A stretch of DNA of 60,251 bases, from IMG/VR virus record IMGVR_UViG_3300037963_001896, positions 1-60,251 of that record; one strand, 5' to 3'. The DNA comes from a virus. Its lineage: Duplodnaviria > Caudoviricetes. Shown here one piece after another: positions 6,087 to 60,251 of the stretch. The notes under the pieces are model-generated. The model was not told the DNA's origin. It did no database searches and saw only the letters and a list, made by a program, of their open reading frames with translations. The translations under genes and the position numbers were made by a program. Every line of letters starts with the position of its first letter. Position 1 is the stretch's first letter.

Positions 6087-6494
6087 TTACGATACTGTTA
6101 CCCAAATCTCAATGTCGCCAGTACCCCCGCCCCCTGGACCTACTTGAGCTAAAACATCAATTGTGTCATCAGCTGTATAAGTCTTTGGTGCAGTGTTTGC
6201 GTCTAGAGTATCTGTACCACCTGCTTGACCGATCGTAGATCCATCAATGTAGTAGTCAGTGTCAGAACCATCACCAACGTCAAGCACAAGTGCAGTACCT
6301 GTGTCTAAGTCGCCAGTTTTGATTACTACGTTATGCACAGTTTCACCTGCAAAAACGTCAACCATTTGGATAACGTCATTTACTGCGATTGCAGTAGTTG
6401 CTGTGAATTTAGCATACCTAACGCCAAGATTTCCGTCAGGAAACGGCTTAAAGGATTGATTCCCGTCTACGGGACCTGAAGTGTATGTTGCCAT
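6087..6494 (-). CDS. Putative virion structural protein (capsid decoration-like), isolated in the replication arm
   Basis: All-beta, G/T/D-rich, MAT start, LDVGDG...YID pattern, AGGTGG RBS, own terminator. Confidence 0.65.
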   Translation of the reverse strand: MATYTSGPVDGNQSFKPFPDGNLGVRYAKFTATTAIAVNDVIQMVDVFAGETVHNVVIKTGDLDTGTALVLDVGDGSDTDYYIDGSTIGQAGGTDTLDANTAPKTYTADDTIDVLAQVGPGGGGTGDIEIWVTVS

Positions 6495-6607
6495 ATTACC
6501 ACCTATTTTAGTTAAAATTAAAATTCAGCACTTTTTTGTGCTACCATTATTCGAACATAAGACGTTTTTTATAAATGTCAAGTTATTTGCCTAGATAAGG
6601 AGTATTG

Positions 6608-31785: not shown

Positions 31786-34446
31786 TTAATAATCCGATGC
31801 GTTTGTTTTAGTTACTGTATAAGTTAGTGTACTGACTGTGTCTCCTACTGCTTCTGACTTTAAACTAGCAAATACAAAATCAGTTCCTCTTAGTGGCGTA
31901 ACTGATATATAAATACCAGAGTATACGCTACCTCCCGAAGACCCTCCTGTATTTTGGAAGTCTAACCAGCCACCTCCCGTTCCTGCGTTTGGAGCCGTAA
32001 ATCGTACAGCATAACTGTAACTACCCGCTGTTCCCTCGCTTACAGTTTTTACTGAAAGGCTGTTAGTGTAATTAGTATCAACTTTTATAGTATGCGCTGA
32101 AGGACCATACCAACCACCAGAAGTCCATATAGTAATCATGTAAGACGCTCTGTGATTTATCCAAAGCAACCTATTCCAACTAGCTGTACTCCCATCGGAC
32201 TTTGTACCATACATAGCCGAAGGGTGGGTGTAGGTTCCAAAAGTATAGGCTGTGCCAGTAGAGTTGTATTGGTGTCCTATTTTCCCGTAGTTAAGTGTAG
32301 TATGGCCTGAATTATTAGAGGTGTAGTTACCTATGTTAGAAGAAGATTGACCTAGAACCGCTTGCCCATGAAACGTACTGGTCTGATCTGGATTCATGTA
32401 CAAAGCTGGAGTATTGTTTAATTCTGCGAAGGTAGCATTAGCGTTTGTTGCGTGCGGATTTACATAGAATCTCAAACCACCATCGTAGTTCCCTGCGGGT
32501 GAATCTCTATAACCTGAAATTTTTCCTGTGTATGTGTCGTTATCTCCGTCAAAAAACGCTATAGATGCTTGTCTAGCTCCATCAGAGGTTGAGCCACCAT
32601 TCCTCATTATAGTAAGCATTTCTTGATCGTTAGCGCCAGTTACAGTTTTATGTATCGTAAGACTTTGATACATTTCAACAGCACCCGCAGAGGTGATAAG
32701 CATTCTTTCTGTATTCGTACCGCCACTAGGTCTTGTTAAAAATGCTAAATCACCATAAGTAGCACCCTTATATTTAGCCCTTAACCCTGCTATCGGGTTT
32801 TGACCATTTGCTCCAAGCGAAATCCTACCCCCTGTATCGGTAGTAGTTCCTGATTGTGATACAACTAAGTGACCCCAATTCAAATCATTGACACCACCGC
32901 CTTCTATATAAGCAACTGTTCCATAGGGTGAACCACTACTCCAACCTGTATCTTCCACGTGAAGTTTAGAAAAAGGATCCGTGTCTCCAATCCCGACGTT
33001 TTTGCTTGTATCAATAGTTAGTGCAGTAGCATCATTTTGAATAAGCCTAAGCTCATTATTAGATGTTGTGCCTATGTACACATGTGAGTTGTTAGTTTGA
33101 TACGCTGCTACTACTGACGAGCCTCTTGTGCTTCTCCATATATTTCCTGCTGAAGGGGTCATTTCTAAAAGGTAGTCATTTGCTACTGTTGCACCACCTA
33201 ATGCCACACTACCTGAGTACGTACCAGTTCCTGTAACAGATATACCACCTGATGTTGTTTCTATTTTTTTACTGCCTGCGTGATAAAGTTCTACAGCACC
33301 ACCAGCAATAAATTTAGAAAGCCACCCGCTGTTCGCTGTGTCATACATATTGACTTGCGAATCTGTATTGATTGACAAATTACCTGTGCCTGCATCTTTT
33401 ATGTACGAATGACCTGCTGAAGCATCGTGGTAAATTTGTAAGTCATCTCCTGTACCTAACTTAATAATTGCATCATCAGGCATATCCAGATGGCTGGAGA
33501 TATGAACCTCTCCAACTACATCTAAAGCCCCAGAAGCAGGGGACGCGGTACCTATACCAACACGAGAGTTAGAGTTATCTACAACAAACGTAGGAGAATC
33601 GAAGGCTACGTCATACGATCCCACGGTTAGGGATCCAGGTAATGTAATGTTGCCTGAAAGTTTTGCACTGGTTACGGTGTTATCGCTTGGTGTGCCTATG
33701 TTTACAGGGTTTATGGTATATACAGTTACACTACGTCCTACAACTACGCCCGTGTCGAACGTAAGAGTATTTGAACTTAGCGTAAATGACGCTTGATTTT
33801 GGAAAACACCATCTATAAAAGCTAGTACATTTGATTCGCCTCCAGGTGCGTCAGAAAGCGTAAACGCTGTCTGGCCACTTGTAGCTGTAAATGTATCAAC
33901 AGTAAGGTTAGAACTTTGAAGGTTTATTAAGTTATCTACTACTACCTCGATTTTAGTGCCATTCGTTGGAGCTGCGTCAAACGTCAGGGTGGATCCACTA
34001 AAACTAAACGTATCGTGGTGTTGGTATACACCATCTAGAAAAACACTAGCGTTTGCTTCTACACCAGGGTCTACACCGATGTTGTAATCGGTTGCATTAG
34101 ACGCTGCAGTTGCAGAGTAAACGGTTTGGTTAGCAGACTTAGCTGCTATATTTTCTTGTATTTCAGTTAGTACGGCGGCAATAACACGCAGTTCAGCTGA
34201 ATCTCCAGTACTGAACGCACGAGCTGACGTATTGTCCTGTGCTCGAACAATAGTCAAAGCGTTACCACTTCTTGCCGTAACCTTTGCTATCTCATTGTTG
34301 CTTCCATCATCAAAGGTGATGTAGAAATATTCTCCCGCTCCAAGAGAGGGAAAGACTGACCCATCAGTAACAGTTGCACTTGTCGCTGAGTTGGTTAGCC
34401 CACTAGCAAGGGTTGTTTTGGCATTGTTAGTATATTTAACAGCCAC
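31786..34446 (-). CDS. Tail fibre / long virion protein
   Basis: NNAKTTLASG...IVRAQDNT head, two VF.DGV.Q Ig-like repeats, VGIG repeats. Confidence 0.85.
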   Translation of the reverse strand: MAVKYTNNAKTTLASGLTNSATSATVTDGSVFPSLGAGEYFYITFDDGSNNEIAKVTARSGNALTIVRAQDNTSARAFSTGDSAELRVIAAVLTEIQENIAAKSANQTVYSATAASNATDYNIGVDPGVEANASVFLDGVYQHHDTFSFSGSTLTFDAAPTNGTKIEVVVDNLINLQSSNLTVDTFTATSGQTAFTLSDAPGGESNVLAFIDGVFQNQASFTLSSNTLTFDTGVVVGRSVTVYTINPVNIGTPSDNTVTSAKLSGNITLPGSLTVGSYDVAFDSPTFVVDNSNSRVGIGTASPASGALDVVGEVHISSHLDMPDDAIIKLGTGDDLQIYHDASAGHSYIKDAGTGNLSINTDSQVNMYDTANSGWLSKFIAGGAVELYHAGSKKIETTSGGISVTGTGTYSGSVALGGATVANDYLLEMTPSAGNIWRSTRGSSVVAAYQTNNSHVYIGTTSNNELRLIQNDATALTIDTSKNVGIGDTDPFSKLHVEDTGWSSGSPYGTVAYIEGGGVNDLNWGHLVVSQSGTTTDTGGRISLGANGQNPIAGLRAKYKGATYGDLAFLTRPSGGTNTERMLITSAGAVEMYQSLTIHKTVTGANDQEMLTIMRNGGSTSDGARQASIAFFDGDNDTYTGKISGYRDSPAGNYDGGLRFYVNPHATNANATFAELNNTPALYMNPDQTSTFHGQAVLGQSSSNIGNYTSNNSGHTTLNYGKIGHQYNSTGTAYTFGTYTHPSAMYGTKSDGSTASWNRLLWINHRASYMITIWTSGGWYGPSAHTIKVDTNYTNSLSVKTVSEGTAGSYSYAVRFTAPNAGTGGGWLDFQNTGGSSGGSVYSGIYISVTPLRGTDFVFASLKSEAVGDTVSTLTYTVTKTNASDY

Positions 34447-37022: not shown

Positions 37023-40000
37023 TTACCTAATTGCTGCGTATCCAGGCAGATAATCAGATAACTTGGCGTTACCTCGTACTAAATCTTCTAACCTTTCGGC
37101 AGAAGGACCTAAAGCTGGTGTAATAAAGGAATTATCATATCTACCGGCTTCTAGCATAGGTATAATTAAACCGTATGGCCCCAACACTCCAGCTCTATCT
37201 ATAATCTCTCCTGTATAAGGAAGCCAGTCCATATTATCGCTTCTAAACGCGTTATCATCAAAACCACGCCCTACGTATTTAAGCCACTCTCTCATTTCCA
37301 AACCCAGCATAGTCAATGGTAGTAAGGTGAGAGCAGCTAGTGCTAAAGGAACAGCTCCACTAGAAATAGTTCCGTCTTCAGAATATCTATTGCCAGATTC
37401 GCGCATTGCTCCGCCTACAATGTTTTTACCGTAAGCATAGAAGAAAGACTTAAGCTGCCAAATAAGTGCTGTATAAGGGTTAGAAGCCCAAACAGGTCTT
37501 TCTGCAGCATTCGGACGTACAATAGATTCCTCTACAAACCTACCAATCGCCATTTGTACTCTTTGTCCCTCTGGAGTACTAAAACTACGACCACTAGCAT
37601 CCCAAGCTTTTATATCTTCTCTACTTACTTGTAGTTCGCGTAAGAACCTATTAGACCTATCGCTGTTTGCGTTTGCTTGGCGAATTAAAAACTGTTCGCC
37701 CATACCAGCAGCAAAAACTCTAGTAAAGTTTGTATACCACTCTAAACCAATAGCTTTAAAGAAAAGATCTGAATACTTTTGCGCTGTAGGGGTCATAAAG
37801 CCCATTTCATTAGCTTGCATAATACTGGTATTAAGAGAGTCATAGGTTATTACACCTACGTCCCTAGCAAACTGTTGCATTTCTTTTGTATCGGTAAAGT
37901 ACCTACGTACCTGAGTAAATCCTTCCTGTAGATTCTGCCAAGACAAATCTTTAGACCTTAATACAGGTCCTGCTAAGTCTGGTAACGAGGCAAGAGTAGC
38001 AAAGGTCAAATATGTCACAATGTTCACAGAAAGAAGCACACTGTTGATTTGGCGCATTGCAGGGGACATGTTTAACCCCGACTTACCTAACATAGCTTTT
38101 AAAGCATCTCTGGCAGCAGCCCTATTAGTCTCATCTGGCACTCTAAGTAACAATGCTTCTACTGCTTGCCAACCATCTACTACGTCTCCAACCTTTTTGC
38201 CCTGAAAAGACTGCCTAAAAGCTACAGCTTGGTTTTTGATGTTAGCCATATCCTGTTTAGTAAGCGTAGTTTGGAACTTTTCTTTGTAGTCTAAACGCTT
38301 AGTCATATCCTGTACGTACCTACGTATAGCAGTATTGGCATCCTCGAGTGCGCCTATATCGCGAAGCCTCTCATTAGGAATATCTTTAAAGTATTTAGCA
38401 CGAGATTCGTTTGTACCTATTGCAACATCCGCTACATCAGGTCTTGGGTTATCTGTATTGTCTTCTCCCTCCCGAATCATAGCCTCTACTACTTTATTAA
38501 AGTCTCCGGGGGTTCGGCTCATTTCTTCCCCCTTCAGGTTGTAGATAACAATGTCATCAGGGCCGTCTGGGTTAAATTCTTCTAATAACGCAACTAGGTC
38601 TGCTCTAACTTGTTCATTAGCTTGAAGTTCAGCAATAGCAATAATACGAGGATAGAAATGTTTTCGTTTAAATACATCATCCCTGCCTCTAATATAATCC
38701 TCATAGAAATCATCTAAGTACTTACGTACTGCCCTAGCTTGAGGGCTTCTAAGTTCACTAATAGGAACTTTCCGTTCTGCATCACGTAAAATAGACTCAA
38801 AGGCATCTAGATCAGGAACTACTTTCCCAGTAATAGTAGTTTTAGTAGGCGCTAGTTTATGTAAGTCGTTAAGTCTCTGATACATAAGAAGAACACGAGC
38901 ATTTAAATGTCCAGTTTTTTCTTCTGATTGCGACATAGAATAAATGCCATTGGCTAATTCAGGCGCGTACTTACCTACTAATCCCCTTAAATAGTTGTGA
39001 GCGGGCTGTAAAAAATACCCAACAGACCAATGCCTTCTGTCGTTTGGCATTAATTCTCTGCCTGCTTCCAAATTTTCAGTAATCAGTCGTCTTATCTGTT
39101 GGACTGCCTTCCTGGGCATAAAACTCTTTAAGGTAGTAGAAGCCTCATCCACCATATTTCGCACTACAACCCTGTCACTATATGTCATAGGTGCGTTACG
39201 TTGCTTACCATTTTGATAAGACTTTATAACTTCTTGTACATAATCATTAAAAGCCGGACTAGTCGGTCCTTCACTAAACCTAAGTCTTAATGTTGAATCT
39301 AGGCTTTTAAATACATCTCTAATCTTATCTGCTAGGCGTTTAAAGAAACTTTCAACCCCGTTAGTAGGCTTCTTAGCTTCGTTTAAAAGCCAAGTCCCCA
39401 TTTTATCGGAGAACCATTCTTCAAATCCAAACTCGCCTTCGTACTGACGTCCCCCGATACCGGCCTCTTTATCTTTTTGAAAAGCTGCTTCCAAATCTTT
39501 ACGCAACTTAGGATTAGCTAAAGAACGATTTAATTCTTGATGGAAGATAGCGTGACCTAATTCATGCCCTAAAGTTAGAATGGCTTTTACTTGCTGTACA
39601 GGATTAGGGTTTGCAGGCACATCTATTACAATAAGATCAGTGTCACCAAACCTTATGTATTTACCTGACTCCCCTTTTTCACGCATATTGGCTACTGTCT
39701 GTTTAACCAAATCAGGGATAGCGTACTGTTTACCCTCAAAAGTAACAGTCTCGACCATTTTATTTTTAGGTCGTAAAAATTTATCGTCTTTTAAAACATT
39801 TTCAGCTGTAGTAATACGAGTAGTCCGTCCTCCATACCCTAACTTATTAGAAATAAGACTAGATAACTGAGGCCACAAACCCCCCATAACAGAGTTCCAA
39901 CTTGCATCTATTTCAACTTTGCCTTTTTTAGCCCCAGGCTTACGCTTCATTTGTTCGCTTTGTAGCGTATCCATAATAGGATCCGCAGTAGGACGCCCTT

Positions 40001-43000
40001 CTATGTTTAACCCTGTAAGAGGTAATTTTTCTAAATTATCTTCACTTTTTATATCTTGCTGGGCAAACTCATCTCCGATACCTTCTTCTTCAAATTCAGC
40101 TTTATCTATGTACTTTTCGTCTTCTTGCCTTTGTATTTCATTTAATCTAGTACGCGGGTTTGAGCTAAAGTTTCTCCATTTTGGTCCTGAGTTAACAGTA
40201 GGAGCAACGTAAGGAGCTTTAATCCGTAGCGCCACTCTATTCATTCTGTCTTCGTATTCAGCTTTAGTCTCTGCTTCAACAGTAAATCCAGCTTCGTTTA
40301 CATATTCTTCTCGAATAGGGTACTTAGCGTGTGCCTGCTCATGGCGTATAATAAACTCTCTGAACTGTTCTAAAGTTGTAAACTGATCTTCTGGCAAGGG
40401 TGTAACCCCTTCTACATTTGGCTTAGTCCAAGCTTTATCTTCAAACTTCTGCCTAAGCGTCTGCATGTTGACATAGATCTCTTTAGTCTGCCTGTTATAT
40501 CTGGCCCACGCCTTACCTCGCGGCGTTTTCTCTTCTCTGTTTATTTTAGGTTCGGGTAGACTAAAAGGGTCAAAAGTTGCTCCTATCTCACTTGCCCCCG
40601 AAGCTTCTTCTGCTTCTTTGTATATATCGCGTTCCCTAAAATAAACTCTTTGAGCATCTAACTCAGCTTCTAACTTAGACTTTTCAATGTTCATTTCTCG
40701 CGAAGTAGGTTGCATAGAAGCAGGACCTTCTCCTTCCCTTTCTGGAATAGCACGGCCTTGCTCAGCTCTCTTAAACGATATAGGTGTACCACCTTTTAAT
40801 TGATATATAGGAGCGTTTTGCCAATTTTGAGACGCATTTAGGGGCTGACCTTGGTAAAGAAGTTCATAACCATTTTCCGCTAACGCTTCAAACATACGTG
40901 TAAAGCCATCTGAAATACGACTAGTGTCTGCAGTAAATGTTTGGGGTTCGTTTAAACCTAAATTCATACCAAACTGAACTAAATTACCTAAATAAACAGC
41001 TCTACCCGAATCATTTTGCCCAACTTCTCTGACAGACCAACCTTTTGTTATATTCCTAAGAGCGGGTTTAGCTCTAGAAGCTTGTGTTACTACATCCCCA
41101 ATACGTTCTGCTGCATTTATTCTGTCTCCCGGTAACACGTCTCTAGGAGAAGTAGCAATAGTCCACTCTCCATTTTCATTCTGCCTAGGAGTTAAAATAA
41201 GATTGGGGTTAGTCCTAGCTTGAGCTTTAAAAGCTTCAAGGAACGCAGTAGGTAAAGTATCTAAAAGAGCTTCAATATCCGGAGAAGCTTCTATTTCGTT
41301 TATTTCTAAAAAGCCATTCTTACCAAATATTAAATCTTCTCTTTTATCTAGCTCTGCATTTGTCTGTTCATCAGTCATTCCTTCAAACGCGTTCTCAGCG
41401 TTTCTTGCAGGCCAAGTTAAAACAGGACGATTTTGTCTAGCCTCGAGGATTTCTTCCTCAGTCATGTTTGCCTGTTCTGCTTTAGTAAGAGGTTTAGTAA
41501 TAAAACTTTCTCTGCTCGCGTCGAAAGTAGTACCCCCTTCACTAAACGCAATATCGTCCCCCTGCTCTTGCGTAACTGGGTCTGCAAGGCTTGTTGGGCT
41601 AGTGGGGTCTTGAGGACCCCCCTCTACTATCATGCTGCGGTCAGTAAAATCAAACTCTTGTTGCTGAGGAGCGGGACCTTCTTCTTGAGTCGGTTGTTGC
41701 GTCTGCTCTGCTTGCGGAGTAGGTTGCGCTTGTGGCCCTTGTTGGTCTCCAAAATCAAACGCTTGTTGCCTTTCATTAAAAGCTGCTTCTCTAGTAACTC
41801 CTTCAATGCTGTACTTCCCTTCATTAGGAAAACGTGTACGTGCGTGCAGTTTTACAGCATCTACATTTCCTTCAGTTGTAGTTTGTTGCCAAACAACATT
41901 ACCCGCAGAATCTTTTACCTGTACAACAGCATCATGTGAAGGATCTGAAACTTCTGTGTAACCTAAAATCTGCTGAAGAAAAGTTTCAGAAAAACCAGAA
42001 TCAATAGCGTCTTTAGCGTCAGTTTCAAAGTTCTTATTAGCCCTATCTAAAATTAAAAACCCTGAATTATTGGCGGTGTCATATACTATGCCGAACTTTT
42101 CTTCTATTTGAGCTGCGGTATATCCTTCTTCTACAAGGTCTTGTAAAAAATCATTAAGAGTATTAGCAGTATCTGCTTCATTTAAACCGTCAGTAGGAAG
42201 CCAAACTGCTTTAGTTTCTGTATCTTCATCTAAAAGAGATTGTATTTGAGCTTGAGACCATTCTTTTGGCTCAGGGATAACTCTACCATCCGACTGCCCT
42301 TTTTTACTTGCGATCGAAGCTTCTTCAGCTACATCAGCACCTTCTTGTGCCAACCCTCTAGCTTTACCAATAACATTAGCGACAGCCCCTGTAGGAGCTG
42401 ATCTGCCAGCTCCAGCCCAAAACCCAGCAAAAGCAGACTCGGCTCTTCTTAAATTCGCTTCTCTGTCGGAGTAGTCTGGATCAATTGCAAATCGTTGCTG
42501 AATAAAAAGTTCTTCTTGTATAGTTTCAGTAGTTCCTTCAACAAGTCCTCCTTTAAGTAATCCACCTCCAAAACCTTTCGCCGCTTCTTTTAGCCAACCC
42601 GCTGCTTCTTGGTCTCCTGTTTTAGCGTACTTACCTGCCATACGCTTAAACAAAGCCCCAACAAATAATTTTTCGCCTAATGTACCGATAACAGCTTGGG
42701 GTATACCAAGACCTAACGCTGCTGCAGCTTCTTCATTAGTTAATTTATAGCCAGCTTCTTCGTACTCACCTAACGCTTGTGACGAGCCGACTACATATTC
42801 TTGCCCACCTGCTCCAGCCCAAAAACCTGCGGATATAAAAGGAAAATTAGAAGGTACGCTACCTGTTCTAGCTAAATTTACAAAGTTAGGGTACTGCCCC
42901 ATACGTTTAACAGACTCGTACGCCCCAGCCAATATAGCTTCTTCAGATTCATCTAACGCTTCCCCCAATCCTTTTTTATGAGCTACTTTTTTCTTTAAAA

Positions 43001-44192
43001 TATCGGAAATAACTTCTCGTGTTACTTTCTTAGACGTTGCACTCAATACCCCTTTACCTACCGCAGCTACCGCAGCTCCTGTAAATCCAGAACCTATCGA
43101 ACTAATAGCCATGGGAGTAAATTGGCCTATAGACTTAATTACTTGGTCATAAAAACCTTCAAAAGATGGTTCTTCTAAGAAACTTTCAAAAGTACCTATA
43201 GAATTTAAAATAGAACTAGCGTCTTGTTGTAGACGTTTAGCACGATTAAGTTTTATTTGTGCTGCTTCTTCGTCTCCTTGTAAAAGATTAAAGATTGCTC
43301 CAAATTGATAAACATCAGAAACTAACTGGTCTCCGCCTGCTTGTACCGCACCAGACCAAATGTCTCCTGTAGTGGAACGAAGTGTGGGAGTACGGTCTAT
43401 GGGCATACTTTGGACTAAAGCTTGGTTCCTTTCCCTACGCGCATCAGAATAAAGTTTTGCTGCCAATGCCCCTTCTACTTCAAAACCAGCGCCAGTAGCC
43501 CCGCTTAATTCAAGCGGCGTAGTTTGAGGTTGACCCGCAGGAGTAGGCTGTGGGGCAGAAGCAAAACTAGTCATGGGGGTGTAAGTAGTACTAGGTCTAG
43601 ATTGTGCACGAGAACGAGGAGTACTTGAACGAGGAGTGCTTGGCATTACAGTGTCAAGTAAGGGGTTAGCTGCTCCCCTGTTTTCTTGTCCAGAAGTAAA
43701 TCCCCCTGGTATTTGACCTGTAGAATTGCCTAAAGAACCTAAAAGATTAGCAAATTTAGCAGCTCTAGTAGGAGTTTGTTCTCTAGCCCATTTTGAATCC
43801 ATAGCCTCTTTAGAAGCTGCTTCAAAATCCCCGTCCTGCATCAACTTCCAAGTATCTACAAACTTAGTATTCCAAGCTGTGCCTAACTGAAAGTTAACTG
43901 AAGTAAGTCGTTCTAAAAACGCTTGTCTTTGAGTGGGGTCTAATTCTTGAAATCTAGGTAAGCTATTAGCTTGAGTTTGTGCAGCTCTATAGCTTTTATC
44001 TAAATCTTCTTCATACCATTTATCTAGCTGCGCTTGGGGTACAGCAGTACCAGGGGGGTAAAGTTTTAGCTCATCATCAGACAAAAAGTGCCCGTGCCCA
44101 ACGGAATACCCCGAGGCATCTGAGTAAACCTTGTTGCTAAATCCTTCTTCATTCTTAACAAGGTCATATATGTTTTTAGGTACACTTGCCAC
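37023..44192 (-). CDS. Giant internal virion (ejection) protein with N-terminal lysozyme
   Basis: 2389 aa; EEG....Y.D..GYSVGHGH and DSKWAREQTP.RA; HEQAH and HELGH motifs. Confidence 0.8.
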   Translation of the reverse strand: MASVPKNIYDLVKNEEGFSNKVYSDASGYSVGHGHFLSDDELKLYPPGTAVPQAQLDKWYEEDLDKSYRAAQTQANSLPRFQELDPTQRQAFLERLTSVNFQLGTAWNTKFVDTWKLMQDGDFEAASKEAMDSKWAREQTPTRAAKFANLLGSLGNSTGQIPGGFTSGQENRGAANPLLDTVMPSTPRSSTPRSRAQSRPSTTYTPMTSFASAPQPTPAGQPQTTPLELSGATGAGFEVEGALAAKLYSDARRERNQALVQSMPIDRTPTLRSTTGDIWSGAVQAGGDQLVSDVYQFGAIFNLLQGDEEAAQIKLNRAKRLQQDASSILNSIGTFESFLEEPSFEGFYDQVIKSIGQFTPMAISSIGSGFTGAAVAAVGKGVLSATSKKVTREVISDILKKKVAHKKGLGEALDESEEAILAGAYESVKRMGQYPNFVNLARTGSVPSNFPFISAGFWAGAGGQEYVVGSSQALGEYEEAGYKLTNEEAAAALGLGIPQAVIGTLGEKLFVGALFKRMAGKYAKTGDQEAAGWLKEAAKGFGGGLLKGGLVEGTTETIQEELFIQQRFAIDPDYSDREANLRRAESAFAGFWAGAGRSAPTGAVANVIGKARGLAQEGADVAEEASIASKKGQSDGRVIPEPKEWSQAQIQSLLDEDTETKAVWLPTDGLNEADTANTLNDFLQDLVEEGYTAAQIEEKFGIVYDTANNSGFLILDRANKNFETDAKDAIDSGFSETFLQQILGYTEVSDPSHDAVVQVKDSAGNVVWQQTTTEGNVDAVKLHARTRFPNEGKYSIEGVTREAAFNERQQAFDFGDQQGPQAQPTPQAEQTQQPTQEEGPAPQQQEFDFTDRSMIVEGGPQDPTSPTSLADPVTQEQGDDIAFSEGGTTFDASRESFITKPLTKAEQANMTEEEILEARQNRPVLTWPARNAENAFEGMTDEQTNAELDKREDLIFGKNGFLEINEIEASPDIEALLDTLPTAFLEAFKAQARTNPNLILTPRQNENGEWTIATSPRDVLPGDRINAAERIGDVVTQASRAKPALRNITKGWSVREVGQNDSGRAVYLGNLVQFGMNLGLNEPQTFTADTSRISDGFTRMFEALAENGYELLYQGQPLNASQNWQNAPIYQLKGGTPISFKRAEQGRAIPEREGEGPASMQPTSREMNIEKSKLEAELDAQRVYFRERDIYKEAEEASGASEIGATFDPFSLPEPKINREEKTPRGKAWARYNRQTKEIYVNMQTLRQKFEDKAWTKPNVEGVTPLPEDQFTTLEQFREFIIRHEQAHAKYPIREEYVNEAGFTVEAETKAEYEDRMNRVALRIKAPYVAPTVNSGPKWRNFSSNPRTRLNEIQRQEDEKYIDKAEFEEEGIGDEFAQQDIKSEDNLEKLPLTGLNIEGRPTADPIMDTLQSEQMKRKPGAKKGKVEIDASWNSVMGGLWPQLSSLISNKLGYGGRTTRITTAENVLKDDKFLRPKNKMVETVTFEGKQYAIPDLVKQTVANMREKGESGKYIRFGDTDLIVIDVPANPNPVQQVKAILTLGHELGHAIFHQELNRSLANPKLRKDLEAAFQKDKEAGIGGRQYEGEFGFEEWFSDKMGTWLLNEAKKPTNGVESFFKRLADKIRDVFKSLDSTLRLRFSEGPTSPAFNDYVQEVIKSYQNGKQRNAPMTYSDRVVVRNMVDEASTTLKSFMPRKAVQQIRRLITENLEAGRELMPNDRRHWSVGYFLQPAHNYLRGLVGKYAPELANGIYSMSQSEEKTGHLNARVLLMYQRLNDLHKLAPTKTTITGKVVPDLDAFESILRDAERKVPISELRSPQARAVRKYLDDFYEDYIRGRDDVFKRKHFYPRIIAIAELQANEQVRADLVALLEEFNPDGPDDIVIYNLKGEEMSRTPGDFNKVVEAMIREGEDNTDNPRPDVADVAIGTNESRAKYFKDIPNERLRDIGALEDANTAIRRYVQDMTKRLDYKEKFQTTLTKQDMANIKNQAVAFRQSFQGKKVGDVVDGWQAVEALLLRVPDETNRAAARDALKAMLGKSGLNMSPAMRQINSVLLSVNIVTYLTFATLASLPDLAGPVLRSKDLSWQNLQEGFTQVRRYFTDTKEMQQFARDVGVITYDSLNTSIMQANEMGFMTPTAQKYSDLFFKAIGLEWYTNFTRVFAAGMGEQFLIRQANANSDRSNRFLRELQVSREDIKAWDASGRSFSTPEGQRVQMAIGRFVEESIVRPNAAERPVWASNPYTALIWQLKSFFYAYGKNIVGGAMRESGNRYSEDGTISSGAVPLALAALTLLPLTMLGLEMREWLKYVGRGFDDNAFRSDNMDWLPYTGEIIDRAGVLGPYGLIIPMLEAGRYDNSFITPALGPSAERLEDLVRGNAKLSDYLPGYAAIR

Positions 44193-50481: not shown

Positions 50482-50506
50482 TCTTTTTTCTCCTAAAAAA
50501 GATGGT

Positions 50507-50540
50507 TAATAAAAGCGGGTAGCCCCGAAGGACTACCCAC
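50507..50540 (-). terminator. Terminator after the MCP
   Basis: Minus strand gtgggtagtc-c(ttcg)g-ggctacccgc-ttttatt. Confidence 0.85.
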
Positions 50541-50548
50541 ACCATGCT

Positions 50549-51697
50549 TTAGTAAGCTACGTCCAACCTTACGATACCAAAGTCTTCAGCTTGTCCTGAG
50601 ACATCTGAATGATAGACTGGTTTCTTAAAGCCGAAAATCTTACCAATGGAAATACCGTTCTGGTTTCCATAGTCGAAAGTATCTTCAACAATTTCTGGAA
50701 GACCGATATCAGCCATCGCAAGCCCTTGCGCTCCAACGAATAGACATGCAGAGCCATCAATATCAGCATTGGCCCCCCACTTATATCCATTAGAACCAGC
50801 ATTACCGGAAGCTCCTGAAGTCGCGCCACTTGTATTAAACACGTGTCTGAATTCATGAACCATAATGCCGTCAACCATTAAGCTTGAAGAACCTGAGAAC
50901 AATTCGTTACCTGGTCCTCTTACTCCAGCATTTCTGACGTTAGCCAAGAAGTCTGAATCAAGTTTAAGGTCTGCCATCACTTGAGGTGATACAAACAAGT
51001 GGTATACCTCTTCGTTTCCTGCGCCTCTCATGCCTCTGATGTAATTATCTTTAGCATAAGCTTTAAGCTGGACGATAGCTTTGTAGTTAAGAGTGTCAGC
51101 TGCTACTGTCGCAGTAACATCTCCAGCTACAATACCGCCGGTTCCAGCATCCCACCTTCTATGTCTATTAGTGGTAGGGGCGGTTACGTCGCCAGAGAAT
51201 GCAAGATCACTAAGATTTTGCCCTGAACCCAGAGTGCTTCTTAGTGCGCCGTTATTCTTAACGCCGTATGAAACACCAGCCATCGTTAAAAACGCCAACT
51301 GGTCAATACGATCTGCCATTGCATAAGCAAGTGCATCTCTTGAGTGCTCACGGAAGTTGACAACTGATTTCTGATCAGCAAGCCTACCAGCTAGTCTGTT
51401 TGCAAATCTAAGTTGATCTAGTTGAACAACGATGTCGTACGCCCTTAATGCTTCTTCATTACCCTCAAGAGTGTTATCACCAACGATACCGTCTCCAGTC
51501 ATGTCAGCTAAAAGAGTTATTACAGCTCTTGCGCCTTTCTCTGACTGAGTTAGTTCAGATATTCTCTGAACCATAGCGTTAGGACCACTTCCTGCGAATT
51601 GGTTAATGAAGGACATATTTCGGGCAACACGCCAAAAATCACGTGACCAGATCGTAAGCTGTTCGCTGGTCAGTGCGCTAAAGTTAGTATTAGCCAT
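50549..51697 (-). CDS. Major capsid protein (N4-gp56/DUF4043-like)
   Basis: GDNTLEGNEEAL, DQLRFA, DYGNQNGISI, EDFGIV; follows portal and scaffold; own terminator. Confidence 0.9.
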   Translation of the reverse strand: MANTNFSALTSEQLTIWSRDFWRVARNMSFINQFAGSGPNAMVQRISELTQSEKGARAVITLLADMTGDGIVGDNTLEGNEEALRAYDIVVQLDQLRFANRLAGRLADQKSVVNFREHSRDALAYAMADRIDQLAFLTMAGVSYGVKNNGALRSTLGSGQNLSDLAFSGDVTAPTTNRHRRWDAGTGGIVAGDVTATVAADTLNYKAIVQLKAYAKDNYIRGMRGAGNEEVYHLFVSPQVMADLKLDSDFLANVRNAGVRGPGNELFSGSSSLMVDGIMVHEFRHVFNTSGATSGASGNAGSNGYKWGANADIDGSACLFVGAQGLAMADIGLPEIVEDTFDYGNQNGISIGKIFGFKKPVYHSDVSGQAEDFGIVRLDVAY

Positions 51698-51760
51698 TTA
51701 TGTACTCCAATTTAAGTTAACAAAATTTAACCGACTTTTGGGGCGATATTTTACCCGTAT

Positions 51761-51887
51761 ACCCTTTATCGTTGGGGCTACGACATCGTATTTTTAACGA
51801 GAACGACCTCGGTCAGATTTACGCCATGACGGGCGAATACGTTTTTTATCCTAAACGACTAGGGTTAGATATCGTTCTAACAGACGA
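51761..51887 (-). ncRNA. Array of five tandem H-type pseudoknots in the MCP 5' leader
   Basis: Five units of 23-26 nt, each with 4-bp S1, 4-6-bp S2 and (in four) an A-rich loop 3; see findings. Confidence 0.7.
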
Positions 51888-51912
51888 AGTTATATAACAT
51901 CCTATCACAATT

Positions 51913-52995
51913 TTACCCAAAGTCACCACGCATCCGTTTTAATGTGTCTTCTGGTAACGCACTAAACTCATCGTCAGATAAAACATTTATGTCTGCTACT
52001 GGCTTTCGTTTAGCGGTACTTTCCCCTTTCATTTTAGGGGGTTGCGATTTAGACGCTTGTAATTTCTTTTTAACTGTTGTCTTTTTTCTTTTTTCTACAA
52101 CGGCTTTATTTTGTTGATTAGTTTGTAATGCAGCTGCTTCATCAGACCCTTGTAACAGCTCCGGATGTTTTGCAGCGAGCGTATATTCAGTTGCTCTAGC
52201 TAAAGAATCTGCAGGTTCATACCCTTGGATTATAAAAGCATCCCTTAGCTCCATAACTTCTTTAGTTAAGTCTTCATCGAAATCAGCGCTTTCTTCATTT
52301 AAAACAGTAAAAGTAGTAGCTATTTCTACTGCTTTAGCTTGTAGTTCTTGAGCTGCTCTGTCTTGTTGTACAGTTTGACCCATCTGTTGTTGTACTTCGA
52401 ACATCATCTGCTCTTTTTCTGCAGCACGAATCTCATTACGCAATTTAGTAGCGTTTTCAGAATCGCCATCTAGCACAAACTGCTGGTATTCTTGTTCCTT
52501 AAGATCAAAATCATACTTAGGAGCTTCGGCTTGTGCTTCGGCTTCTTTTTGTTGAATTTCATCTAGCTGTTTTTGCATTTTTTTATTCTTCGCAAGTACT
52601 TCATCTAACCTAGACTTAGGCACCATAGGAGCTTTTTCTGGCTCTTTTGGTTTTTCTATTTCTTCCTCTTCGAGGGCAGCGGTTGGGTCGTCAACGGTCT
52701 CCTCTTCTTCAGATTCTCCTGGTACTTCAACCTCATCTTGATCCTCTCCGTCTTCGGGATCCTCGGCATCTTCCTCCTCCTCGACTTCATCCGTGGTCTC
52801 TTCCACTTCTTCTACAACTTCTTCGGAAGGGAATTCTACTTCCTCTTCTTCAGAATCTTCTTCTACAACTTCTTCTTCCGCAGGAACTTCATCTTCAAAG
52901 TTCAAATCTACTTCAAAAGGTTTTGCTTCTTCTTCAGTTATGGGGTCTGCTCCAGGCATACCGTCCATAATTACATCTTTCTTTTCCTCAGCCAT
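51913..52995 (-). CDS. Capsid scaffolding protein
   Basis: Very acidic N-terminus, VPKSRLDEV, coiled coil, LSDDEFSALP...MRGD. Confidence 0.85.
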   Translation of the reverse strand: MAEEKKDVIMDGMPGADPITEEEAKPFEVDLNFEDEVPAEEEVVEEDSEEEEVEFPSEEVVEEVEETTDEVEEEEDAEDPEDGEDQDEVEVPGESEEEETVDDPTAALEEEEIEKPKEPEKAPMVPKSRLDEVLAKNKKMQKQLDEIQQKEAEAQAEAPKYDFDLKEQEYQQFVLDGDSENATKLRNEIRAAEKEQMMFEVQQQMGQTVQQDRAAQELQAKAVEIATTFTVLNEESADFDEDLTKEVMELRDAFIIQGYEPADSLARATEYTLAAKHPELLQGSDEAAALQTNQQNKAVVEKRKKTTVKKKLQASKSQPPKMKGESTAKRKPVADINVLSDDEFSALPEDTLKRMRGDFG

Positions 52996-59396: not shown

Positions 59397-59568
59397 GCTT
59401 ACCCTGTAGCACGAGCGTAGCTCGTGAGTATTGGTCTTTGTGTAATTATTGATTATTGGCTTTGTAGCAAGGCCACTAGACGTATCAATTGTTATCCAAG
59501 AGTGTTGACGCGAACAGTCAGTAATCATGATTACATTTATTAATTAATAAACGCCAAAGGAGGCAACT

Positions 59569-60251
59569 ATGTCAAATAATGACGATCTATTTGATCCAGC
59601 GGATCAAGAAACGGAAGAATTACTTCCACCTAACTTCACCGAAGAGTCAGCGTTCGTACCTGATACAAACGGTGATCCAGAAGGCTCGGAAGCACGCTCG
59701 GAGAAACCGGCGATTGCTCTACCAGACTTCTTCTTCAAGCGTTACAGACTTGATGACGAAGGTAAACCTACCTTCAACGAGTCAGTAGTTGGCAGCATCA
59801 TGTCCGTGTTCGACATGAAAGCTGATTCCAATATGACGTTCAAAGGCGACAACGCCGACGACGAGGAGAAATATTACGACAGTCAAGTTAATACGATCGT
59901 AGATGGTATTAGCCAGCTGTTGGAGGTTGACCCTCAATCGACTGGTATCAACTTCTTATCGTTGAGCACCAGGACATGGGCAGAGTTCGTTAGTATCGCA
60001 TACGAATACAACGACTCTTTGACCAGCATCAGTGCAAATGACGAGATACCTGATTGGCTCATCCAACGAGAAGAAAAGATGATGCAGCTAGGTAGAAAGG
60101 CTCGTATGTTGCGTGATGCAATTAGCGCTATAGACGACAAGTTCGGACTGAAAAGCACCTCACTAGACCGTGGTCGTGTACAGAACGAAGTTGAGCGAAG
60201 ACTGCAAAGGTTAGCTGAATGGAACTTCAATCAGCACGCCGACCAGTCAAG
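59569..60251 (+). CDS. Early acidic 249-aa protein spanning the junction (continues 1-167; missing from ORF track)
   Basis: AAGGAGG RBS; MSNNDDLFDPADQETEELLPPNF...; open frame through the overlap. Confidence 0.85.
   Translation, partial: MSNNDDLFDPADQETEELLPPNFTEESAFVPDTNGDPEGSEARSEKPAIALPDFFFKRYRLDDEGKPTFNESVVGSIMSVFDMKADSNMTFKGDNADDEEKYYDSQVNTIVDGISQLLEVDPQSTGINFLSLSTRTWAEFVSIAYEYNDSLTSISANDEIPDWLIQREEKMMQLGRKARMLRDAISAIDDKFGLKSTSLDRGRVQNEVERRLQRLAEWNFNQHADQS
60152..60251. repeat. Terminal direct repeat / circular assembly overlap, copy 2
   Basis: Matches 1-100 with one mismatch. Confidence 0.97.

What the first reader, a model, noticed from the sequence alone, without database searches (positions are those of the whole stretch)
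51728..51899. Five tandem H-type RNA pseudoknots forming the major capsid mRNA leader
Seen on the minus strand, starting just after a -10-like TGTTATATAAC. PK1 51887-51864: UCGU-cu-GUUAGA-ACGA-ua-UCUAAC. PK2 51863-51840: CCUA-gu-CGUU-UAGG-auaaaa-AACG. PK3 51835-51812: CGCC-c-GUCA-u-GGCG-uaaauc-UGAC. PK4 51811-51786: CGAG-g-UCGU-u-CUCG-uuaaaaau-ACGA. PK5 51783-51761: UCGU-a-GCCC-ca-ACGA-uaaa-GGGU. A weaker sixth may follow. The sequences differ but the topology repeats (4-bp S1, 1-2-nt L1, short or absent L2, mostly A-rich L3), so this is a structural repeat that sequence-repeat finders would miss. Inference: a cis element for mRNA stabilisation, S1-dependent translation enhancement, or feedback by capsid/scaffold protein. 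I know of no named family with this architecture.
Basis: partly seen in the sequence, partly recalled or inferred. Interest (0 to 1): 0.9.

Follow-up and report, generated by a model that had tools for sequence, protein, structure and literature searches.

The report
Six-pseudoknot leader of capsid mRNA
The untranslated stretch in front of the major capsid gene of this marine phage folds into six small RNA pseudoknots in a row, a conserved and apparently undescribed RNA element that most likely keeps the capsid message stable and highly translated.

Summary
In the single sequence a chain of 5 exceeds all 2000 dinucleotide shuffles, and it is the only such place in the 60-kb genome. In 108 distinct related leaders, aligned by sequence alone, 94.7% of cells pair against 30-42% in slid controls. 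33 of 47 pairs change on both sides, which needs at least 54 independent double substitutions, and G.U outnumbers A.C 156 to 24. PK5 is invariant, so it is untested by covariation. A second clade, about 55% identical in capsid protein, has different sequences but the same design. The array reads as three copies of a two-pseudoknot module. Rfam 15 has no match. A conserved -10-like box lies just upstream and a terminator follows the capsid gene. Function is inferred, not shown: most likely a 5'-terminal stabiliser and expression leader of a dedicated capsid mRNA. A protein-bound translational operator is the main rival. No transcript 5' end could be mapped.

The parts
51913..52995 (-). Upstream gene: 360-aa very acidic protein between portal and capsid genes. 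'Scaffold' is by position and composition only.
   Evidence: ORF list. No PHROG family at E<=1e-4. Its C-terminal motif is conserved in 71 related loci.
51899..51907 (-). Conserved -10-like box (TG, one base, then a TAnnnT hexamer); putative promoter or processing site that would set the mRNA 5' end just before PK1
   Evidence: A TAnnnT hexamer lies 4-12 nt (mostly 7-10) upstream of PK1 in 94 of 103 distinct leaders. A 4-of-6 -35 match inside the last codons of the upstream gene lies 16-17 nt further up in 46. Not called by the sigma-70 scan tool, because it scores 8 of 12.
51864..51887 (-). PK1 (A-type): S1 51887-51884 / 51875-51872; S2 51881-51876 / 51869-51864
   Evidence: S2 has 6 of 6 pairs with changes on both sides. 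S1 has three invariant pairs and one pair with three Watson-Crick types. 98% of cells pair.
51840..51863 (-). PK2 (B-type): S1 51863-51860 / 51853-51850; S2 51857-51854 / 51843-51840
   Evidence: S1 has 4 of 4 covarying pairs and S2 has 3 of 4. The third S2 pair is U.U in about half of the sequences.
51812..51835 (-). PK3 (A-type): S1 51835-51832 / 51825-51822; S2 51830-51827 / 51815-51812
   Evidence: S1 has 3 of 4 covarying pairs and S2 has 4 of 4.
51786..51811 (-). PK4 (B-type): S1 51811-51808 / 51801-51798; S2 51806-51803 / 51789-51786
   Evidence: S1 has 4 of 4 covarying pairs and S2 has 2 of 4. It follows PK3 without any linker in 108 of 108 sequences.
51762..51782 (-). PK5 (A-type, nearly invariant): S1 51782-51780 / 51772-51770; S2 51776-51774 / 51764-51762
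   Evidence: Stems are invariant in 108 sequences except one pair with 3 double changes. An alternative nested partner for the first stem lies at 51758-51756. The structure is consistent with the data but not proven.
51730..51756 (-). PK6 (B-type, long L1): S1 51756-51754 / 51742-51740; S2 51747-51744 / 51733-51730
   Evidence: S2 has 4 of 4 covarying pairs and S1 has 1 of 3 (G-C to A-U in 40 sequences). 99.7-99.8% of cells pair.
51698..51729 (-). A+U-rich, poorly conserved spacer with the Shine-Dalgarno GGAG (51708-51705), ending at the capsid AUG (51697-51695)
   Evidence: Spacer from PK6 to AUG is 28-44 nt and 75% A+U on average in 108 leaders. Coordinates.
50549..51697 (-). Major capsid protein gene (382 aa)
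   Evidence: phrog_334 major head protein, E 4e-74. 54% identical to the major head protein of Pseudomonas phage KPP25.
50515..50540 (-). Intrinsic terminator-like hairpin (11 pairs, 7 G-C) with a T run, 8 nt after the capsid stop codon
   Evidence: A hairpin plus T run lies within 90 nt of the capsid stop in 60 of 80 distinct-leader loci that reach that far.

Best explanation
SHOWN: the minus-strand spacer in front of the major capsid gene encodes a conserved structured RNA of six tandem, compact H-type pseudoknots (51887-51730).
- The units are 21-27 nt long, with stems of 3-6 bp.
- L1 is 1-3 nt (2-8 in PK6) and L2 is 0-1 nt (2 in a few sequences).
- L3 is A-rich, 5-8 nt as a rule and 2 nt in PK1.
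- Linkers are 0-8 nt.

The array reads as three copies of a two-pseudoknot module. An 'A-type' unit has a first stem with a C-G/G-C core. A 'B-type' unit follows, whose first-stem loop carries a UCG that pairs downstream.

INFERRED, architecture: the capsid gene is its own transcription unit. A conserved -10-like box 7-10 nt upstream of PK1 puts the 5' end of the message at or within a few bases of PK1. An RNase cut in the same A+U-rich stretch would do the same. A terminator closes the unit right after the gene.

INFERRED, mechanism: the array acts in cis as a 5'-terminal stabiliser and expression leader.
1. A stack of fast-folding local pseudoknots at the 5' end denies 5'-end-dependent decay enzymes (RppH and RNase E, or RNase J in hosts that have it) a single-stranded entry.
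2. It keeps the downstream A+U-rich ribosome-binding region free of long-range pairing.
3. The most needed virion protein is therefore made from a long-lived, well-translated mRNA.

The nearly invariant PK5-PK6 core may in addition be a specific binding site.
For: Structure:
- 108 distinct leaders aligned by MAFFT, not fitted to any structure. 47 pairs, 94.7% of 5040 cells paired against 30-42% when partners are slid by 1-3 columns.
- 33 pairs change on both sides (10-19 when slid), in 645 cells (30-122 when slid). 0 of 500 shuffles reach the observed value on any of five measures. The smaller set gives the same picture.
- At least 54 independent double substitutions are needed (Watson-Crick pair types minus one, summed over pairs).
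- G.U 156 against A.C 24 fixes the RNA to the gene strand.
- RNAalifold, blind to my model, recovers one stem of PK1, PK2, PK3, PK5 and PK6.
- Loop lengths are almost fixed and L3 is 51-75% A, as in classical H-type knots.

Single sequence: a chain of 5 against at most 3 in 2000 shuffles. It is unique in the genome. A-then-B modules occur on the gene strand only here.

Depth:
- A second clade has capsid proteins about 55% identical.
- It carries 3.29 compact knots per 185-nt leader, against 1.24 in coding controls and 1.20 in shuffles.
- It carries CG-cored A-type knots at 1.79 per leader against 0.52 and 0.42, with 57 of 58 leaders holding at least one.
- Its second stems are wholly different at the same slot.

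Position:
- The -10-like hexamer is present in 94 of 103 leaders.
- In clade 2, in the rows of the alignment view that reach far enough upstream, a terminator hairpin with a T run precedes a -10-like box and the first knot. This is by eye and was not counted.
- A terminator follows the capsid gene in the window and in 60 of 80 loci.
- The spacer is A+U-rich and unpaired.

Analogy: in T4 gene 32 a 5' pseudoknot, A+U-rich UUAA(A) repeats and an RNase E cut just 5' of the knot go with the most stable T4 mRNA (PMC3014915, passages read).
Against: - No 5' end was mapped. The RNA runs were assembled contigs at low depth. The only informative piece is one 232-nt identical contig of one metatranscriptome spanning 51593-51824, which shows only that coding sequence and leader lie on one contig in an RNA library, and DNA carry-over is not excluded.
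- The tool's sigma-70 scan does not call a promoter in front of PK1. The -35 match is weak and lies in conserved codons.
- In the marine clade no terminator separates the upstream gene from the array, so read-through transcripts would carry the array internally.
- A single 5' hairpin suffices to stabilise bacterial mRNAs (recalled knowledge). Stabilisation alone therefore does not explain six knots, the fixed loop lengths or the near-invariance of PK5-PK6, which point to a specific partner.
- PK1's 2-nt L3 across a 4-bp stem is tight.
- PK5 has no covariation and has a nested alternative.
- Cultured relatives KPP25 and phiA008 show no array above chance, so the element is not indispensable in the lineage.
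Confidence: 0.5

Rival explanations
1. Translational operator. A phage protein (capsid, scaffold or another RNA binder) or a host protein recognises the invariant PK5-PK6 core. It then represses or activates capsid translation, as gp32 does on its own leader. The other knots serve as spacers or extra binding units.
For: - The PK5-PK6 region is nearly invariant in sequence over 108 leaders, while PK1-PK4 vary freely. That is typical of a specific contact surface.
- The layout of knot(s), then A+U-rich spacer with UUAAA, then ribosome-binding site copies the gene 32 operator.
- The 3' side of PK6 is weakly more complementary to its own Shine-Dalgarno region than to those of other members: -6.62 against -6.15 kcal/mol, 0 of 2000 permutations. 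A PK5 control shows nothing, 384 of 2000.
Against: - No partner is known, and no binding test was possible.
- The complementarity is small and largely compositional. A C-rich PK5 control scores -6.1 against -7.6. A fixed-register helix pairs 53% against 47-50% at the negative offsets and 29-42% at the positive ones.
- The Shine-Dalgarno sequence lies 21 nt beyond PK6 in the window and is not part of any supported helix.
Confidence: 0.2
2. Stand-alone or trans-acting RNA. The array is cut out, or made as a short transcript, and acts away from the capsid message, for instance as a decoy for a host nuclease or defence protein or as an assembly cofactor.
For: - The size (about 160 nt), rigid modular build and strong conservation resemble free structured RNAs.
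- A conserved A+U-rich stretch on either side could be a processing site.
Against: - It always lies directly upstream of the capsid gene, with no terminator between them, in all full-length leaders seen.
- It is found only there in the genome.
- No evidence of a separate RNA species (one search is uninformative).
Confidence: 0.08
3. Processive antitermination or RNA-polymerase-modifying RNA, like the put RNAs of phage HK022 (recalled). The nascent array binds the transcribing polymerase just after the late promoter and alters pausing or termination over the roughly 35 kb of late genes downstream.
For: It lies directly behind a promoter-like box, at the head of a long run of same-strand structural genes from 51697 down to 16109. 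A strong terminator follows the capsid gene and must be partly read through, unless other promoters serve the tail genes.
Against: - No similarity to any Rfam family.
- The conserved terminator right after the capsid gene fits differential expression by termination better than its suppression.
- The portal, terminase and scaffold-position genes lie upstream of the element.
Confidence: 0.07
4. Ligand-sensing riboswitch or riboswitch array. Each compact knot with an A-rich tail resembles preQ1-I or SAM-II-type aptamers, and the invariant PK5-PK6 core would be the sensor.
For: The knots are small H-type with an A-rich L3. One sequence-invariant core exists. There is a weak hint of an alternative pairing with the ribosome-binding region and of an alternative partner for PK5's first stem.
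Against: - No match to any riboswitch model, even at E up to 10 in the window or 0.05 in 9 members.
- PK1-PK4 have no conserved unpaired nucleotides that could form a pocket.
- A capsid gene is an odd target for metabolite control.
Confidence: 0.05
5. Chance or non-RNA feature: protein-binding DNA repeats, a replication or packaging site, or a small gene on either strand.
For: Short ORFs of 41 and 63 codons overlap the region on the plus strand. A UCG/CGA core recurs in the units.
Against: - Compensatory changes in interleaved helices and a 156:24 excess of G.U over A.C.
- Loop indels of 1-2 nt that break any frame.
- Shuffle tests.
- Read-through of the upstream stop meets another stop 12 codons on (sequence).
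Confidence: 0.01

Closest known systems
Leader pseudoknot of phage T4/T2/RB69 gene 32 mRNA (translational operator and part of the most stable T4 mRNA)
   Same: - An H-type pseudoknot with coaxial stems far upstream in a phage mRNA leader.
- It is followed by an unstructured A+U-rich stretch with UUAA(A) repeats that runs into the ribosome-binding site.
- The 5' end of the mature message lies just before the knot.
(PMC3014915, passages read. The window spacer has two UUAAA.)
   Different: - One knot there, six here in a modular (A+B)x3 array.
- The regulated gene is the single-strand-binding protein that itself binds the leader, whereas here it is the capsid gene.
- No sequence similarity. Neither element has an Rfam model. 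PMC10690425 states that none exists for gene 32, and this array matches none.
- Binding partner and processing are unknown here.
Upstream pseudoknot domain of tobamovirus (TMV) 3' untranslated regions
   Same: Several small H-type pseudoknots set head to tail with little or no linker, able to stack into a rod. That the domain has three knots and enhances translation is recalled. Its binding of eEF1A is stated in PMC8518580 (passages and reference list).
   Different: It is a eukaryotic plus-strand RNA virus element in a 3' UTR next to a tRNA-like end. Here the element is in a 5' leader of a DNA phage mRNA, and ARAGORN finds no tRNA-like element. There is no sequence or Rfam relation.
Compact H-type aptamer and recoding pseudoknots (preQ1-I riboswitch, luteovirus frameshift knots)
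   Same: Unit size (about 21-28 nt), 3-5-bp first stem, 1-2-nt L1 and an A-rich last loop fit to lie in the minor groove of the first stem. The comparison values are recalled.
   Different: No covariance-model match. There is no slippery site or open frame through the array. PK1-PK4 have no conserved pocket nucleotides.
Candidate structured RNAs mined from IMG/VR intergenic regions (PMC10690425, 'DNAVirus_' models)
   Same: Same data source and method family. That catalogue lists 8495 models of 29-151 nt, among them five typically upstream of genes with the major-capsid-protein domain PHA00201 (passages read). Pieces of this leader may be among them.
   Different: The main text describes no tandem pseudoknot array.

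Membership tests
H-type pseudoknot (structural class) | Two helices whose strands interleave (S1a, S2a, S1b, S2b), each supported on its own | tested here: met
   PK1-PK4 and PK6: both helices of each unit have pairs with changes on both sides. PK5: invariant, so inconclusive, with a nested alternative.
H-type pseudoknot (structural class) | Short first loop across the deep groove, and a longer, often A-rich last loop across the shallow groove | tested here: met
   L1 is 1-3 nt in PK1-PK5. L3 is 5-8 nt as a rule and 51-75% A. Exceptions are PK1's L3 of 2 nt and PK6's L1 of 2-8 nt.
T4-type gene 32 leader operator | Lies upstream of, and is bound by the product of, the single-strand-binding protein gene | tested here: not met
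   The downstream gene is the major head protein (phrog_334). Binding could not be tested.
T4-type gene 32 leader operator | 5' pseudoknot followed by an unstructured A+U-rich stretch reaching the ribosome-binding site | tested here: met
   The spacer is 28-44 nt, 75% A+U, with no supported helix. There are six knots here, not one.
Tobamovirus upstream pseudoknot domain | Consecutive pseudoknots in a 3' UTR next to a tRNA-like structure of an RNA virus | tested here: not met
   Consecutive knots are present. However, the element is in a 5' leader of a DNA phage gene, ARAGORN finds no tRNA-like element, and there is no Rfam match.
Any Rfam 15 family (including preQ1, SAM-II/V, fluoride and guanidine riboswitches, small ribozymes, xrRNA, tmRNA) | Covariance-model score at or near the family's gathering threshold | tested here: not met
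   Window 51000-52600: the best three matches have E 4.7-9.3 and lie 26-69 bits below gathering. Nine other members, 34.8 kb: no match at E<=0.05.
Sigma-70 promoter in front of PK1 | -35 and -10 hexamers at 16-18 nt, at least 9 of 12 matches | tested here: inconclusive
   The tool does not call it in the window. A TAnnnT hexamer is conserved in 94 of 103 leaders, and a 4-of-6 -35 match in 48 of those 94.
IMG/VR 'DNAVirus_' candidate structured RNAs (PMC10690425) | Match to one of the published models | not testable with these tools

The most novel reading that the evidence does not exclude
The array is a new class of phage RNA device. It would be a modular rod of three double-pseudoknot units acting as a multivalent platform at the 5' end of the capsid message. 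Either it is a nuclease-proof 'cap substitute' that stalls 5'-end-dependent decay enzymes, the way tandem knotted RNAs of flaviviruses stall Xrn1. Or it is a counting or feedback site that couples capsid synthesis to the assembly state by binding capsid or scaffold protein through the invariant PK5-PK6 core.
Probability: 0.3. Interest if true: 0.9.

Novelty: new variant of a known kind. Interest (0 to 1): 0.8.

Why it matters
- It would add an abundant, deeply conserved and architecturally unusual RNA family to the few structured RNAs known in DNA phages. At least 588 capsid-gene relatives were found in IMG/VR and 104 distinct full leaders were fetched.
- Six tandem pseudoknots are, to my knowledge, without precedent in a bacterial or phage mRNA leader.
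- Sequence-repeat finders and nested-fold programs miss the element. Similar arrays may therefore be widely overlooked.
- If it stabilises or boosts a message, it is a compact, modular part for synthetic biology. It would also be a handle on how phages set the large excess of capsid protein over other virion proteins.
- If it binds a protein, it opens a testable case of assembly-coupled gene control.

Tried and rejected
- Nested folding of the single sequence: z = 0.02, uninformative for pseudoknots.
- Cultured relatives: blastn against cultured phages found only a 92-nt capsid-gene piece. The leaders of KPP25, phiA008 and AP1 show no pseudoknot chain above shuffles. By eye AP1 has two abutting knots that resemble PK3/PK4. 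This is a lead only.
- Transcript ends: one search for RNA runs and one laying of four metatranscriptome runs from four studies. All were assembled contigs at low depth, and no start, end or strand could be read. Stretches without cover are not evidence.
- Recoding: rejected. The array lies after the stop codon, and read-through meets another stop 12 codons on.
- 3'-end protection of the upstream message: unlikely, because in the clade-2 rows of the view that reach far enough upstream a terminator hairpin separates the upstream gene from the array (by eye, not counted).
- Anti-Shine-Dalgarno switch through PK6: weak and inconclusive.
- General late-gene leader: rejected for this genome, because A-then-B modules occur on the gene strand only at the capsid leader. 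The three other chain-4 places look like chance.
- Host: MAG-binned relatives sit in bins of at least five phyla, so no host can be inferred. The genome has no tRNA.
- Automatic detection of the upstream gene end failed in GC-richer clade 2. I used fixed windows instead.
- One search had a bug (12 of 58 sequences) and was replaced.
- The supplements of PMC10690425 could not be read and may hold models that overlap this leader.

Full report
**What is there**

The window is a complete 60,251-bp virus record. Replication genes lie on the plus strand. A long run of structural genes lies on the minus strand.

On the minus strand the order is terminase large subunit, portal, a 360-aa very acidic protein with no PHROG family, a 215-nt spacer (51912-51698), the major capsid gene (phrog_334, E 4e-74), and a strong terminator-like hairpin 8 nt after the capsid stop. 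I call the acidic protein scaffold by position and composition only. The finding lies in the spacer.

**The observation**

The five units are present letter for letter.

- Single sequence: a search for compact H-type pseudoknots finds a chain of five in the 161-nt array. None of 2000 dinucleotide-preserving shuffles exceeds three.
- Whole window: among all 161-nt windows of both strands, only this place reaches five.
- Other programs: Tandem Repeats Finder sees nothing and the nested fold is no better than shuffles. This is what one expects of a repeat in structure built from pseudoknots.

**Comparative test**

The capsid protein has at least 588 relatives in IMG/VR. The best 80 (81-95% identical) were fetched. 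In the 71 loci that reach the upstream gene, the spacer is 208-230 nt long.

A motif scan and a profile search raised the set to 181 hits, of which 165 are full length and 104 are distinct leaders. I aligned 108 distinct leaders, including four divergent ones, with MAFFT by sequence alone (A2). I then counted the six-knot model on that alignment.

| Measure | Model | Partners slid by 1-3 columns |
|---|---|---|
| Cells paired (47 pairs, 5040 cells) | 94.7% | 30-42% |
| Pairs changed on both sides | 33 | 10-19 |
| Cells with a change on both sides | 645 | 30-122 |

- No shuffle of 500 reaches the observed value on any of the five measures.
- Counting Watson-Crick pair types minus one over all pairs gives at least 54 independent double substitutions. 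This bound needs no tree.
- G.U pairs outnumber A.C mismatches 156 to 24, so the RNA is on the gene strand.
- The smaller first alignment gave the same picture.
- RNAalifold cannot draw pseudoknots and did not know my model. It recovers one stem each of PK1, PK2, PK3, PK5 and PK6.

Weak points:
- PK5's stems are invariant, so untested. Its first stem has an equally invariant nested alternative partner at 51758-51756.
- The third pair of PK2's second stem is U.U in about half of the sequences.
- PK1 has only 2 nt in its last loop.

**Anatomy**

Coordinates are in the parts list.

- Loop lengths are almost fixed across the 108 leaders. L1 is 2, 2, 1, 1, 2-3 and 2-8 nt for PK1 to PK6. L2 is 0-1 nt (2 in a few sequences). 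L3 is 2, 6, 6, 7-8, 5 and 6-7 nt, and is 51-75% A.
- PK2 follows PK1 with no linker in 93 of 108 sequences. PK4 follows PK3 with none in 108 of 108.
- The units alternate between two types. In A-type units (PK1, PK3, PK5) the first stem starts with a UCG or CG core. In B-type units (PK2, PK4, PK6) a variable first stem encloses a loop with UCG that pairs with a downstream CG-containing strand.
- The array is therefore three copies of a two-knot module. Modules 1 and 2 are identical at 34 of 52 aligned positions.
- After PK6 comes a 28-44-nt spacer, 75% A+U and poorly conserved, then GGAG and the AUG.
- PK1-PK4 vary freely in sequence, whereas the PK5-PK6 stretch is nearly invariant.

**Depth of the family**

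- Marine relatives binned into MAGs of several phyla carry full or partial arrays.
- A second clade has capsid proteins about 55% identical to the window's. It was fetched with the capsid protein of L208. It has different, GC-richer leaders.
- Those leaders hold 3.29 compact knots per 185 nt, against 1.24 in a coding control and 1.20 in shuffles (58 distinct leaders).
- They hold 1.79 CG-cored A-type knots per leader, against 0.52 and 0.42. 57 of 58 leaders have at least one.
- In the alignment view the same slots recur with wholly different second stems.
- A contig of a cultured Pasteurella testudinis strain has units like PK1 and PK5.
- Cultured phages KPP25 and phiA008 show nothing above chance, and AP1 shows only two abutting knots.

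**Where the RNA starts and ends (inferred)**

- A TAnnnT hexamer lies 4-12 nt, mostly 7-10, upstream of PK1 in 94 of 103 distinct leaders. It is often preceded by TG. A 4-of-6 -35 match inside the last codons of the upstream gene sits 16-17 nt further up in 46.
- The tool's stricter sigma-70 scan does not call this site in the window.
- In the clade-2 rows of the view that reach far enough upstream, a terminator hairpin with a T run precedes a similar box and the first knot. This is by eye and was not counted.
- A terminator-like hairpin follows the capsid stop in 60 of 80 loci.
- Together these suggest a discrete capsid transcript that begins at the array. An RNase cut in the same A+U-rich stretch would give the same end, as happens just 5' of the gene 32 knot.
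- The public RNA data available were contigs and could not show ends.

**Mechanism**

I commit to a cis-acting 5'-terminal stabiliser and expression leader, at 0.5.

- The array is unique to the capsid gene in this genome.
- It sits at the predicted 5' end of a terminator-closed unit.
- It is followed by an open A+U-rich ribosome-binding region.
- The closest studied case, the T4 gene 32 leader, combines these same features with exceptional mRNA stability.

Six knots, fixed loops and an invariant core are more than simple end protection needs. A protein-bound operator is therefore the main rival, at 0.2. Its only computational hint is a small excess of complementarity between PK6's 3' side and its own Shine-Dalgarno region. 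That hint fades in register-anchored and composition controls. The remaining rivals are a trans-acting RNA, antitermination, a riboswitch, and chance or a DNA feature. They are set out with their tests in the Rival explanations section.

**Novelty**

- Rfam 15 has no match in the window region, even at E up to 10. It has none in nine other members at E up to 0.05. ARAGORN finds no tRNA or tmRNA.
- Full-text searches found no description of a pseudoknot array in a phage capsid leader. The searches covered tandem pseudoknots with bacteriophage, pseudoknots with capsid, untranslated region and covariation, gene 32 and RNA motifs upstream of capsid genes.
- Two 2026 preprints on non-coding elements do not mention capsid (term searches only).
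- The IMG/VR catalogue of candidate structured RNAs (PMC10690425, passages read) may contain fragments of this leader in supplements I could not open.
- I therefore rate it a new variant of a known kind, a structured pseudoknotted mRNA leader, with a real chance of being more.

Noticed in passing
window 50505-50540 (-): Strong intrinsic terminator-like hairpin (11 pairs, T run) 8 nt after the capsid stop. It is conserved in 60 of 80 related loci. The capsid gene therefore looks like a separately closed transcription unit inside the late gene run.
   Followed up: partly
window 51782-51780 with 51772-51770 or 51758-51756 (-): The first strand of PK5's first stem has two invariant possible partners. 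One gives the pseudoknot. The other gives a nested hairpin that overlaps the first base of PK6. This could be a conformational switch in the only sequence-invariant part of the array.
   Followed up: partly
window 51742-51734 and 51729-51700 (-): The 3' side of PK6 is slightly more complementary to its own Shine-Dalgarno region than to those of other family members (0 of 2000 permutations), but the effect is 0.5 kcal/mol and mostly compositional.
   Followed up: yes
window 59511-59681, 34221-34391, 6381-6571 (-): Three other places reach a chain of four compact pseudoknot-like motifs. Their stems are A+U-rich and irregularly spaced, and the place at 34221-34391 lies inside a gene. They look like chance. 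Conservation was not checked.
   Followed up: partly
L201-L205, L207-L210 (genome contigs): Close and distant relatives of this phage's capsid region sit in metagenome-assembled genomes labelled as Gammaproteobacteria, Dehalococcoidales, Neomarinimicrobiota, Poseidoniales (archaea), Verrucomicrobiales, Patescibacteria and others. This is most simply phage contigs mis-binned into MAGs.
   Followed up: no
L211:1240-1500: A 72.5-kb contig of the cultured strain Pasteurella testudinis DSM 23072 encodes a capsid protein 52% identical to the window's. Upstream are a terminator hairpin and units like PK1 and PK5. It is possibly a prophage member of the wider family.
   Followed up: no
window 37023-44192 (-): A 2389-aa virion protein. 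Its N-terminal part matches internal-virion-lysozyme and endolysin families, and its C-terminal part matches virion structural protein families.
   Followed up: no
window 52864 joined to 50335 in RNA contigs: Contigs of three metatranscriptome runs from three studies join 52864 to 50335 with the same 11 letters between. Both sides lie in glutamate-rich coding stretches, so these are probably contigs of other phages or low-complexity matches.
   Followed up: no
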